Shown: piece after piece, positions 17,190 to 18,596 of the stretch | How the letters are laid out: each line of letters begins with the position of its first letter | Numbering within the stretch: the first letter of the stretch is position 1 | From: an uncultured Actinomycetes bacterium | Lineage (GTDB): Bacteria > Actinomycetota > Thermoleophilia > UBA2241 | Assembly (NCBI GenBank): GCA_963725665.1 | Contig: CAVRZA010000001.1 | Location: 224,001 to 288,000 of the forward strand | Length of the DNA stretch: 64,000 nucleotides | Direction of reading: 5' to 3' | Made by a program: the position numbers and the translations under genes | Notes under the pieces: model-generated | Told to the model about the DNA's origin: nothing | The model's input: only the letters and a program-made list of their open reading frames with translations | The model's database searches: none

Positions 17190-18596
17190 TCAGGCTGGGC
17201 CGACGGAGCTCTTCTCGCGCAGCCGCTCGACGCTGTTGACACGCACGTTGAGCAGCCGGGCGATGCGCACCTTGGCCTCGATGCCCTTGGCGGCTCCCGG
17301 CACGCCCGTGACGACGCCGATGTCGAGCCGCTCGCGCAGCTCGCGCATGACCGTCGAGTCGCTCAGCTCCCCCAGCCCGACACCCAGCTTGTCAGCCACG
17401 TAGCGCTTCGCCTGCGGCAGCCTCATCTTCTTGAGCTGCATGCGCGCCACCAGATCTCCGGCGGTGCGGATGCCGCCCATGCCCGAGGCCAGCGAGTGGC
17501 AGACGGACATCCCCATGGGATCTCCGCCGCCCACCTACAAGCCGTCGGCTCGGCCGATCTCGACCAGGGCGACGCCGGCGCGGGTGACGACGTCCGACGG
17601 CTGTACCTCGACGGTGGGGACCCCACCCACGCCCATGCCGACGTTGGCGTGGATGGGGATCTCGGCCACCCGCGAGCACTCCTTGACGAAGGTCACCGCG
17701 CGCGCCACGTTCCAGGGCGCGGACTTGCCGGTGTTGGTCGTGCTCACCGGTCCGAAGATGTGCGCCCCCGCCCGCTCGGCGGCCTTGACTTGCTGGTGTG
17801 GCCACAGCCCTGCCAGCCGCGTGCCCTTGTACTCGAGCTCGCCGTGGAAGCCGAGGACGAGCTCGGTCGCCATGCCCACCTCGATGGCGAGGTCGGTCGT
17901 GGCGGCGAGCTCCTCGATCGCCTGTAGCGTGGCGAGGAACTCGGCGTCGCCTGCCGACCCGGTCGTGTCGAAGTCGATGCCGTCGGCGCCCATTGCCGCC
18001 ATCGCCCTGCCCATGGTCACCATGTCGCGGCGCAGGGTCTCGGCCGCCTCGAGCTGAGTCTCGCGGGCCTCCTCGATGCGTCCCTTGGGCAGCAGGTCGG
18101 CTGGGTTCGGGAAGGGGCCGTCGGGCTGAAAGTAGAGGCCCATGTTGGGCATCGCGCCGTAGAAGAGGGGCACGATGCAATCGAGGAGCGCCTGCTCCAT
18201 GCAGAGCTGCTCGAGGGCTACGAGCGCCTTGGCCGGCTTGAACGAGTAGTCGGGGTGCCCGACCTCCATGGTGTCAAAGCCCAGCGCGCGCTCCATCACG
18301 CGTATGCCCTGCTCGCGGCCGAGGGGCACGCCCACCCCGCTCGACATCTGCCCACTGTAGAGGGTGTTGGCGCAGCCGTCCTTGGTGAGGACGACCTCGT
18401 GACCGGGCGGCACGCCGGCGATGCGCCCCGGGTAGGCGAAGAGGTCGTGCAGGTAGTCGATCTCGTTGGCTTCGAGAGCGGGAATCTTCGCCTTGGCGGC
18501 CGCCGCCTCCGAGCCCTCTACGAGCTCACGCCGCAACCCGTCGGGCGTGAGCTCGACGGCGTATCCGTCACCCATGCGGGTCGTGATCGTAGTCAT
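17190..18596 (-). CDS. mtbB: Dimethylamine:corrinoid methyltransferase with in-frame amber codon (pyrrolysine, residue 354)
   Basis: [36 protein letters not shown] and GMGVGGVP motifs; ...GRADGL-TAG(17535-17537)-[30 protein letters not shown] continues in frame; 468 aa in total. Confidence 0.92.

What the first reader, a model, noticed from the sequence alone, without database searches (positions are those of the whole stretch)
17190..18596. Pyrrolysine-encoding dimethylamine methyltransferase (mtbB) in a high-GC, probably actinobacterial genome
Seen: the ORF track splits this gene into 355-aa and 114-aa pieces in the same frame, separated by a single TAG at 17535-17537 (…GAC GGC TTG TAG GTG GGC GGC GGA GAT CCC…). 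Read-through gives 468 aa with [12 protein letters not shown] at residue 354. Known: Methanosarcina MtbB has catalytic pyrrolysine at about residue 356 in a DGI-O-IGVGDPLG-like context followed by GDLVARM. Pyl is best known from methanogenic archaea and some Firmicutes and Deltaproteobacteria. The other breaks in this contig are indels, whereas this is a clean amber codon at the Pyl site. Inference: the organism uses the 22nd amino acid to demethylate dimethylamine, and standard annotation would miscall the gene as a pseudogene.
Basis: partly seen in the sequence, partly recalled or inferred. Interest (0 to 1): 0.92.

Follow-up and report, generated by a model that had tools for sequence, protein, structure and literature searches.

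The report
Pyrrolysine mtbB gene with flanking signals
This is a real, intact gene for a dimethylamine-type methyltransferase whose internal TAG 'stop' codes for the 22nd amino acid pyrrolysine in an uncultured actinobacterium, a trait already reported for this group, and its mRNA keeps a rare codon before the TAG and a small hairpin after it that may tell bacterial ribosomes to read through.

Summary
Confirmed. Reading TAG 17535-17537 (-) through gives a 468-aa MtbB (TIGR02368 530 bits, cut-off 369). The TAG occupies the same column in 123 of 123 homologues, Methanosarcina included. The genome (Thermoleophilia, 68% GC) holds tRNA-Pyl, pylSc, pylSn, pylBCD, 8 mtbB, 5 Pyl-mttB, 1 Pyl-mtmB, corrinoid proteins, methyl-THF transferases and CODH/ACS. 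The trait is family-wide (mtbB 34 of 36 genomes, pylSc 42 of 46), and Pyl-mtbB expression in Actinobacteriota was published in 2023, so the gene is a new member of a known kind. More interesting: TAG ends about 37% of predicted genes here, and the Pyl TAG carries two conserved mRNA features. The preceding Leu codon is TTG/TTA (54 of 54 family genes; 4 of 72 at ordinary TAG stops). A covarying 7-bp hairpin with an AG-starting tetraloop lies 71-88 nt downstream. A matching hairpin follows the TAG of non-homologous mttB (31 of 36 Desulfobacterales Pyl copies, 1 of 16 Pyl-free paralogues). It is not maintained in archaea, and is missing from Bacillota mttB and from mtmB. Rfam PYLIS_2 already draws the mtbB hairpin; no function is shown. 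The scan found gene, hairpin and codon before on other DNA.

The parts
17190..18596 (-). mtbB, Pyl-containing dimethylamine-type methyltransferase, 468 aa, ends in TGA
   Evidence: predicted TIM barrel, pTM 0.83
17535..17537 (-). in-frame TAG = pyrrolysine 354
   Evidence: same column in 123 of 123 homologues; aligned with Methanosarcinaceae MtbB
17538..17540 (-). rare Leu codon TTG directly before the TAG
   Evidence: TTG is 5.1% of Leu codons genome-wide, 10 of 10 before Pyl TAGs, 4 of 72 before other TAG stops; TTG/TTA 54 of 54 in family genes
17447..17464 (-). 7-bp mRNA hairpin with AGAU tetraloop, +71..+88 nt after the TAG; loop A comes from a rare GGA Gly codon
17438..17537 (-). match to Rfam RF02509 PYLIS_2 (predicted pyrrolysine insertion sequence of mtbB); its 3' hairpin is the one above
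   Evidence: 68.1 bits, gathering 36
18602..18609 (-). Shine-Dalgarno-like AGGGGGAG, 5 nt before ATG 18596
   Evidence: sequence; function inferred
18672..20632 (-). upstream neighbours on the same strand: DUF308 membrane protein and MGT-type glycosyltransferase; no corrinoid or mttB gene beside this copy
   Evidence: same order in metagenome locus L227
16178..17137 (+). convergent aldo/keto reductase downstream
   Evidence: same neighbour in L227, L228, L243

Best explanation
The gene encodes a full-length MtbB with pyrrolysine at residue 354. (1) PylB, C and D make Pyl from lysine and the split synthetase PylSc + PylSn charges tRNA-Pyl(CUA): genes shown, activity inferred from known biochemistry. 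(2) Pyl-tRNA competes with release factor 1 at this UAG, while most UAGs stay stops: high TAG stop use shown, competition inferred. (3) Read-through here is probably favoured by the message itself, through a TTG/TTA codon in the P site and a hairpin with an AG-starting tetraloop 71-88 nt downstream: selection on both shown, their role inferred (about 45% that they act on decoding). (4) The Pyl imine activates dimethylamine (about 75%; else a related secondary amine) and the methyl group passes to a corrinoid protein encoded elsewhere, since this copy has no corrinoid gene beside it: inferred. (5) A methyl-THF:corrinoid methyltransferase hands the methyl to tetrahydrofolate for the Wood-Ljungdahl pathway (anaerobic methylotrophy, acetate or CO2 as product): genes shown, flux inferred.
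For: Family scores over cut-off. TAG column invariant in 123 of 123 homologues and frame conserved on both sides. Complete pyl gene set and tRNA-Pyl folding as a cloverleaf. 14 Pyl-site TAGs in three unrelated families in this genome. mtbB in 34 of 36 and pylSc in 42 of 46 family genomes. Corrinoid proteins, methyl-THF transferases, Fhs, AcsB/C/D, CooS. Model is a TIM barrel whose best matches are other methyltransferase barrels (MetH Hcy domain Z 13.5, rmsd 4.3, 226 aligned; M. mazei 4ay7 Z 12.6), with residue 354 in strand 352-356. Related Actinobacteriota express Pyl mtbB and mttB in peat (PMC10805028, section 9). Mass spectrometry confirmed Pyl in archaeal MtbB (PMC2933860 passage). mRNA features.
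Against: No peptide, transcript or activity data for this gene. This copy lacks an adjacent corrinoid gene, unlike several orthologues (L035, L231, L238, L240). Eight paralogues at 48-71% identity need not share one substrate. RamA not found over cut-off; FolD, acetate kinase and Rnf motifs not found by crude pattern search. Against the signal reading: absent from 4 of 4 Bacillota mttB and from this genome's mtmB; in a whole-gene folding scan the hairpin window ranked 3 of 142 in mtbB and was not in the top 8 of 147 in mttB; 3 archaeal mtbB have CTC and one Desulfobacterota gene CTG before the TAG; papers state that no motif is essential for Pyl insertion (PMC12626013 passages).
Confidence: 0.86

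Rival explanations
1. Pseudogene or sequencing error: the TAG is a true premature stop.
For: The assembly has many frameshift-type breaks, and TAG is a common stop here (36.9% of 3409 predicted genes).
Against: Same TAG in 123 of 123 homologues and at 24 of 24 sites in independent metagenome assemblies; downstream frame conserved; full pyl machinery.
Confidence: 0.01
2. Pyl is inserted by plain competition between tRNA-Pyl and RF1; the hairpin and rare codons are kept for another job, such as shielding the stretch of mRNA left bare behind a slowly decoded UAG, pausing RNA polymerase, or binding a regulator of methylamine genes.
For: Pyl is inserted at UAG without any element in reporters (PMC12626013, PMC2933860 passages). 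At +71 nt the hairpin lies beyond the ribosome footprint (general knowledge). It is missing in mtmB and Bacillota mttB, which must still be read through.
Against: The hairpin tracks the TAG, not the protein: 31 of 36 Pyl copies against 1 of 16 Pyl-free paralogues in Desulfobacterales; 0 of 19 Pyl-free paralogues here have the loop A. The -1 codon has no common pairing partner in 72 bacterial mtbB and sits where the P-site tRNA would be.
Confidence: 0.5
3. This paralogue is a Pyl enzyme for a substrate other than dimethylamine, or is used for nitrogen scavenging rather than growth.
For: Eight divergent paralogues fall in six places on the tree; this one sits between a glycosyltransferase and an aldo/keto reductase, away from corrinoid genes.
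Against: It scores well over the equivalog cut-off, is 51-54% identical to Methanosarcinaceae MtbB, and close orthologues lie beside mttB and corrinoid genes.
Confidence: 0.22
4. TAG is reassigned to Pyl genome-wide, as in archaeal code 34.
For: Complete pyl machinery and high TAG count, which in some archaea goes with full recoding (bioRxiv 10.1101/2024.09.30.615893 passages).
Against: TAG ends 36-37% of predicted genes in every length class. Of 85 TAGs with coding-like sequence on both sides, most are followed within a few codons by the start of the next gene; the clear within-gene cases I recognised were the methyltransferase sites (judged by eye). An RF1-like gene is present by motif.
Confidence: 0.02

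Closest known systems
MtbB1-3 dimethylamine:corrinoid methyltransferases of Methanosarcina (PF09505, TIGR02368)
   Same: Full-length match over cut-off, 51-54% identity to Methanosarcinaceae genes, amber codon in the same column.
   Different: Bacterial host with split PylSc/PylSn; methyl goes to THF and CODH/ACS rather than coenzyme M (inferred); TAG is 37% of stops; the downstream hairpin is kept at wobble positions in bacteria (51 of 51 and 48 of 51) but not in the archaeal copies examined (26 of 70 and 16 of 70).
Pyl-encoding mtbB and mttB of Actinobacteriota MAGs from Stordalen Mire (Ellenbogen et al. 2023, PMC10805028)
   Same: Same phylum and gene type; the paper names genus Bog-752 among the most active methylotrophs, and the closest named homologue is from the record 'Actinomycetota bacterium bog_752', 79%, RpoB 87-89%.
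   Different: The passages read give no pyl gene inventory, copy number, family-wide spread or mRNA context; which MAGs carried Pyl mtbB may be in its figure and supplements, which I did not see.
Bacterial Pyl systems of Desulfitobacterium hafniense and the Olavius delta-1 symbiont (Zhang and Gladyshev 2007, PMC1976440)
   Same: Split pylSn/pylSc, several mtbB and mttB copies, UAG still a frequent stop.
   Different: Different phylum; 14 Pyl-site genes here against 8 there; pylBCD-T lies 45 kb from pylSc/pylSn. That paper found no common RNA structure.
Rfam RF02509 PYLIS_2 (mtbB) and RF02510 PYLIS_3 (mttB), probably from Have et al. 2013 (PMC3639795; link inferred)
   Same: Window gene matches PYLIS_2 at 68.1 bits, and the model's 3' hairpin is the one found here.
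   Different: PYLIS_2 leaves one wobble pair open and adds a 5' hairpin that is not in the consensus fold of the bacterial genes. PYLIS_3 does not draw the mttB hairpin; the paper says mttB shows no common structure. The codon before the TAG lies outside both models.

Membership tests
MtbB (TIGR02368 / PF09505) | Full-length score above the curated cut-off | tested here: met
   529.7 against 369.1 bits; 631.5 against 25
MtbB (TIGR02368 / PF09505) | Single in-frame amber codon at the family's Pyl column | tested here: met
MtbB (TIGR02368 / PF09505) | Pyl residue physically present at that site | not testable with these tools
   needs mass spectrometry
MtbB (TIGR02368 / PF09505) | Methylates a cognate corrinoid protein from dimethylamine | not testable with these tools
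   6 corrinoid genes over cut-off in the genome, none beside this copy; no assay
MtbB (TIGR02368 / PF09505) | TIM barrel with Pyl in the active-site cleft, as in MtmB | tested here: inconclusive
   Model is a TIM barrel with residue 354 in strand 352-356; no solved MtbB relative by sequence; MtmB and MttB not among the top 50 fold matches; cleft geometry not examined
Bacterial Pyl decoding system (PylSn + PylSc class) | tRNA-Pyl with CUA anticodon | tested here: met
   C6 343702-343774 (-), ARAGORN and fold
Bacterial Pyl decoding system (PylSn + PylSc class) | Separate pylSc and pylSn genes | tested here: met
Bacterial Pyl decoding system (PylSn + PylSc class) | pylB, pylC, pylD | tested here: met
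Three-component corrinoid methyltransferase system | Methyl acceptor transferase (methyl-THF type) and downstream pathway | tested here: met
   two genes at 294.9 bits (cut-off 259), Fhs 805.8 (652), AcsB 963.6 (800), CooS 597.6 (478)
Three-component corrinoid methyltransferase system | RamA-type reductive activase | tested here: inconclusive
   two AcsV-like genes, 648 and 409 bits (cut-off 800), 117 and 124 on TIGR04270 (cut-off 500); found by motif, no genome-wide family search
Rfam PYLIS_2 | Score above gathering threshold | tested here: met
   68.1 against 36 bits; much of the score is coding-sequence conservation
Rfam PYLIS_2 | Acts as an insertion signal | not testable with these tools
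   needs reporter assays
Genetic code 34 (all TAG = Pyl) | TAG not used as stop | tested here: not met
   36.9% of 3409 predicted stops (own gene caller); operon junctions at TAG

The most novel reading that the evidence does not exclude
Bacteria that keep UAG as a common stop mark their Pyl codons with a two-part mRNA signal that arose separately in two unrelated genes: a purine-ending codon in the P site (TTG/TTA for Leu, GGG/GGA for Gly, GCG for Ala) that weakens RF1, and a 6-7 bp hairpin capped by an A-G-purine-N tetraloop about 72-78 nt downstream that is read by a trans-acting factor. The free-standing bacterial PylSn, an RNA-binding protein that is fused or absent in the archaeal groups lacking the hairpin, is the first candidate. 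This would be a true bacterial PYLIS with a reader, analogous to SECIS-SelB.
Probability: 0.3. Interest if true: 0.82.

Novelty: new member of a known kind. Interest (0 to 1): 0.45.

Why it matters
The gene itself extends a known trait: a whole family of wetland and soil Thermoleophilia carries Pyl machinery and several Pyl methyltransferases, so these bacteria may compete with methanogens for methylamines, and standard annotation cuts their genes in two. The larger stake is the open question of how a bacterium that ends over a third of its genes with UAG reads 14 of them as Pyl. Zhang and Gladyshev (2007) expected a cis-element in bacteria and found none; a 2025 paper says no targeting mechanism is known. 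The conserved codon and hairpin give two synonymous mutations that test this directly, and would matter for amber-suppression engineering.

Tried and rejected
Sequencing runs: no RNA holder listed, best share of words 0.20. Contigs of 4 runs were relatives' fragments; several span the TAG, but only 40 of 283 differences were shown, so this neither confirms nor denies the codon. No solved structure by sequence; Foldseek gave only generic TIM barrels; MtmB and MttB were not in the top 50 of the wide fold search. CTAG avoidance as cause of the -1 codon: rejected, since CTC and CTG precede 65 of 82 TAG-ended genes with a final Leu, and CTG would avoid CTAG equally. Base pairing as cause of the -1 codon: no common partner in 72 genes (37 unpaired), and CTG would fold more stably in 46 of 70. 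The long stem over the UAG in this gene (z -4.84) is not in the consensus fold. The +4 G (14 of 14) is forced mostly by Val/Gly/Ala residues, so I do not count it. The sixth TAG in an mttB hit is an N-terminal overhang. Two of four activase motif hits were FtsW and exopolyphosphatase. Rfam found nothing at gathering score around pylT and pylS. No promoter consensus at 17000-21000. mtbB found in only 2 of 301 genomes drawn from the Desulfobacterota phylum. Paper searches for Pyl in Thermoleophilia or Actinomycetota, for upstream codon context and for bacterial hairpins listed nothing that describes the -1 codon or a shared mtbB/mttB hairpin; subscription papers (Longstaff 2007, Zhang 2005, Prat 2012) were not read.

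Full report
Observation. The stretch 17190-18596 on the minus strand reads as 468 codons with one internal stop, TAG at 17535-17537, residue 354. The read-through protein scores 631.5 bits on Pfam Dimeth_Pyl and 529.7 on TIGR02368, cut-off 369.1. The window is G000:C1:224001-288000 of a 3.73-Mb, 12-contig, 68% GC assembly, 97.5% complete and 5.0% contaminated.

The TAG is the Pyl codon. It falls in one column in 8 of 8 mtbB paralogues of the genome, one of which is frameshifted further on, and in 123 of 123 distinct homologues: 8 own, 41 other Actinomycetota, 4 labelled as other bacteria, 70 archaeal (hits under 380 columns, with other stops or identical were dropped). Of 80 metagenome loci I used the 26 with at least 61% identity; 23 reached the site and gave TAG at 24 of 24 sites. 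L227 is 94% identical and has the same neighbours, so the codon is no assembly error although this assembly has many frameshifts.

Machinery. ARAGORN finds tRNA-Pyl(CUA) at C6 343702-343774 and tRNA-Sec. pylB, pylC, pylD lie directly upstream of pylT; pylSc and pylSn lie 45 kb away; all pass their cut-offs. Five mttB and one mtmB also carry a TAG at the family site, 14 Pyl sites in all; 19 mttB and 2 mtmB homologues examined have none there. Six corrinoid genes pass TIGR02370, none beside the window gene. Two methyl-THF:corrinoid methyltransferases, Fhs, AcsB, AcsC, AcsD, CooS and a group A FeFe hydrogenase pass cut-offs; two activases are AcsV-like but under cut-off. This fits anaerobic methylotrophy through the Wood-Ljungdahl pathway (inference).

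Host and spread. RpoB is 87-89% identical to the record 'Actinomycetota bacterium bog_752', 83-84% to three records named Thermoleophilia, 61% to a Eubacteriales MAG. The named Thermoleophilia loci are not independent of the family sample. The family name UBA2241 is recalled, not shown. mtbB is in 34 of 36 family genomes, often in many copies, and 1 of 24 genomes of other families of the class; pylSc in 42 of 46 family genomes and 1 of 400 genomes drawn from the phylum, only one of them from this family. On the tree the window gene pairs with a family orthologue inside an actinobacterial group, apart from the archaeal clade, and the eight paralogues fall in six places (quick tree): an old, family-level expansion and not a recent import. 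GC is 67-73% across the region, like its surroundings. This copy stands alone between a glycosyltransferase and a convergent aldo/keto reductase, whereas several orthologues sit beside mttB and corrinoid genes.

Structure. A model from a 16-row alignment (pLDDT 78.9, pTM 0.83; residues 74-126 poor) is a TIM barrel with residue 354 in strand 352-356; its best matches are the MetH homocysteine domain (Z 13.5, rmsd 4.3, 226 aligned) and an M. mazei methyltransferase (Z 12.6), only a little above unrelated barrels. No MtbB structure is found by sequence.

UAG is ambiguous here. With my own gene caller, TAG ends 1259 of 3409 genes (36.9%), steady across lengths, including pylSc, pylSn and pylD. So 14 Pyl codons must be read among some 1200 stops.

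Feature 1, the codon before. TTG is 5.1% and TTA 0.2% of Leu codons, yet all 10 Leu codons before Pyl TAGs are TTG, in three unrelated families, against 4 of 72 before other TAG stops (the paralogues are not independent). In 55 family mtbB genes the column is TTG/TTA in 54 of 54 Leu cases; the next of 33 Leu columns reaches 0.18. It is TTG in 12 of 13 Desulfobacterota genes (17% in gene bodies) and TTG/TTA in 9 of 9 Bacillota genes (38%). mttB has GCG in 29 of 36 family genes and GGG/GGA in 29 of 34 Gly cases in Desulfobacterales. Archaeal mtbB has ATA in 58 of 70 (13% in bodies), but 3 have CTC, and archaeal mttB shows no rule. CTAG avoidance and base pairing do not explain it. An effect of the P-site tRNA on RF1 is my inference; such effects in E. 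coli are recalled, and my search did not retrieve them.

Feature 2, the hairpin. Rare codons cluster 24-31 codons after the TAG; codon +26 is GGA in 55 of 55 genes, while the next of 35 Gly columns reaches 0.12. They build a 7-bp stem at +71..+88 with loop AGAY. In 72 distinct bacterial mtbB segments 97.6% of cells pair and 36 cells change on both sides, reached by 0 of 500 shuffles; slid registers pair 15-56% (only two pairs covary, and relatedness is not controlled). All seven pairs form in 45 of 51 family genes against 20% under synonymous resampling. In 70 archaeal genes the two wobble pairs hold in 26 and 16, and GGA is at background. The non-homologous mttB has a 6-bp stem at +66..+81 with loop AGGN in 36 of 36 family genes, the A supplied by GCA (35 of 35 Ala; next column 0.07), complete in 29 of 36 against 1.4%. 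In Desulfobacterales it is complete in 31 of 36 Pyl copies and 1 of 16 Pyl-free paralogues, with an AG loop in 34 against 4; in archaeal mttB 1 of 39. Genome-wide the strict pattern marks 10 of 14 Pyl TAGs, 4 of 920 other TAG stops and 4 of 1441 TGA stops; allowing one mismatch, 13 of 14, 26 of 920 and 37 of 1441 (the pattern was drawn from these genes). Against: 0 of 4 Bacillota mttB and the mtmB lack it, and by folding energy alone the window ranks 3 of 142 in mtbB and outside the top 8 of 147 in mttB (14 genes each).

What is known. Ellenbogen et al. 2023 (PMC10805028; passages and section 9 read, figures and supplements not seen) report Actinobacteriota MAGs expressing Pyl-encoding mttB and mtbB. 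Guo et al. 2022 (PMC9630628; passages) list PylRS in two Actinobacteria. Zhang and Gladyshev 2007 (PMC1976440; passages) describe 8 Pyl genes in one deltaproteobacterium, expect a bacterial cis-element and find no common structure. Have et al. 2013 (PMC3639795; passages and section 17) predict a structure for mtbB and none for mttB. Rfam PYLIS_2 matches the window gene and draws this hairpin; PYLIS_3 does not draw the mttB one. PMC12626013 and PMC13663744 (passages) say no insertion element is required and no targeting mechanism is known; the 2024 code-34 preprint, PMC8318568 and PMC2933860 were read as passages. Nine searches listed no paper on the -1 codon or on a hairpin shared by bacterial mtbB and mttB; subscription papers are outside the library, and unseen supplements may name Thermoleophilia genomes.

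Earlier notes of this scan. They report the same gene type on other pieces of this genome and in other genomes, and also the hairpin and the -1 codon. They are not independent support; the counts above are my own.

Verdict. The gene alone would score about 0.25. The conserved codon and AG-loop hairpin, shared by two unrelated genes in two phyla and tied to the presence of the TAG, make an old question testable with a handful of synonymous changes, which lifts the score to 0.45.

Noticed in passing
G000:C6:294062-299234 and 343702-347667; L347-L357: pylSc sits behind an amidase gene and beside a corrinoid gene, a radical SAM gene and pylSn in most family loci, with pylBCD-T 45 kb away here; a genome of another family (L210) has the compact order pylT-Sn-Sc-B-C.
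   Followed up: partly
G000:C6 pylD, pylSc, pylSn; C6:195341; C4:329910: pylD, pylSc, pylSn and both release-factor-like genes (found by motif) end in TAG; could be feedback by read-through or chance at a 37% background.
   Followed up: no
mtbB codons +31 and +39 after the TAG (window about 17418-17444): Rare AGG Arg codons in 47 of 55 (+39) and 29 of 55 (+31) family genes, a further unexplained synonymous constraint beyond the hairpin; the window gene has AGG at +39.
   Followed up: no
G000:C11:265318-267399, C4:197079-199151: Two intact MtmB-family homologues without a TAG at the Pyl site, each beside a corrinoid gene; substrate unknown.
   Followed up: no
G000, 31 matches to PF06253: Very large MttB superfamily expansion, mostly Pyl-free, suggesting many methylated substrates.
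   Followed up: partly
G000:C11 minus strand 103406 and 102811; C11:550041: In-frame TGA at the redox motif of two peroxiredoxin-like genes and a tRNA-Sec: the organism probably uses selenocysteine too.
   Followed up: no
G000:C3:264225-265028 and C6:463965-464768: Two methyl-THF:corrinoid methyltransferase genes with the same length, score and N-terminus: a recent duplication or part of the 5% contamination.
   Followed up: no
window 1736-4351 (-): 871-aa multiheme cytochrome c with MtrC/MtrF-like domains in an actinobacterium, a possible route to extracellular electron acceptors.
   Followed up: no
window 44851-46443 (-): Protein with seven RTX calcium-binding stretches and a C-terminal M91 peptidase-like domain.
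   Followed up: no
window 20938-23024, 24361-26598, 26988-28502, 34957-36355: Frameshift-type breaks in DUF6421, transketolase, gcvPA and a B12/radical SAM gene, probably assembly indels.
   Followed up: partly
L041: An mtbB in a record labelled Tissierellaceae nests inside Methanomethylovorans genes on a 2-kb contig, probably a misbinned contig.
   Followed up: no
order of G456 (Desulfobacterales): 42 of 251 genomes hold close mttB relatives, most with the TAG and up to at least six copies.
   Followed up: partly
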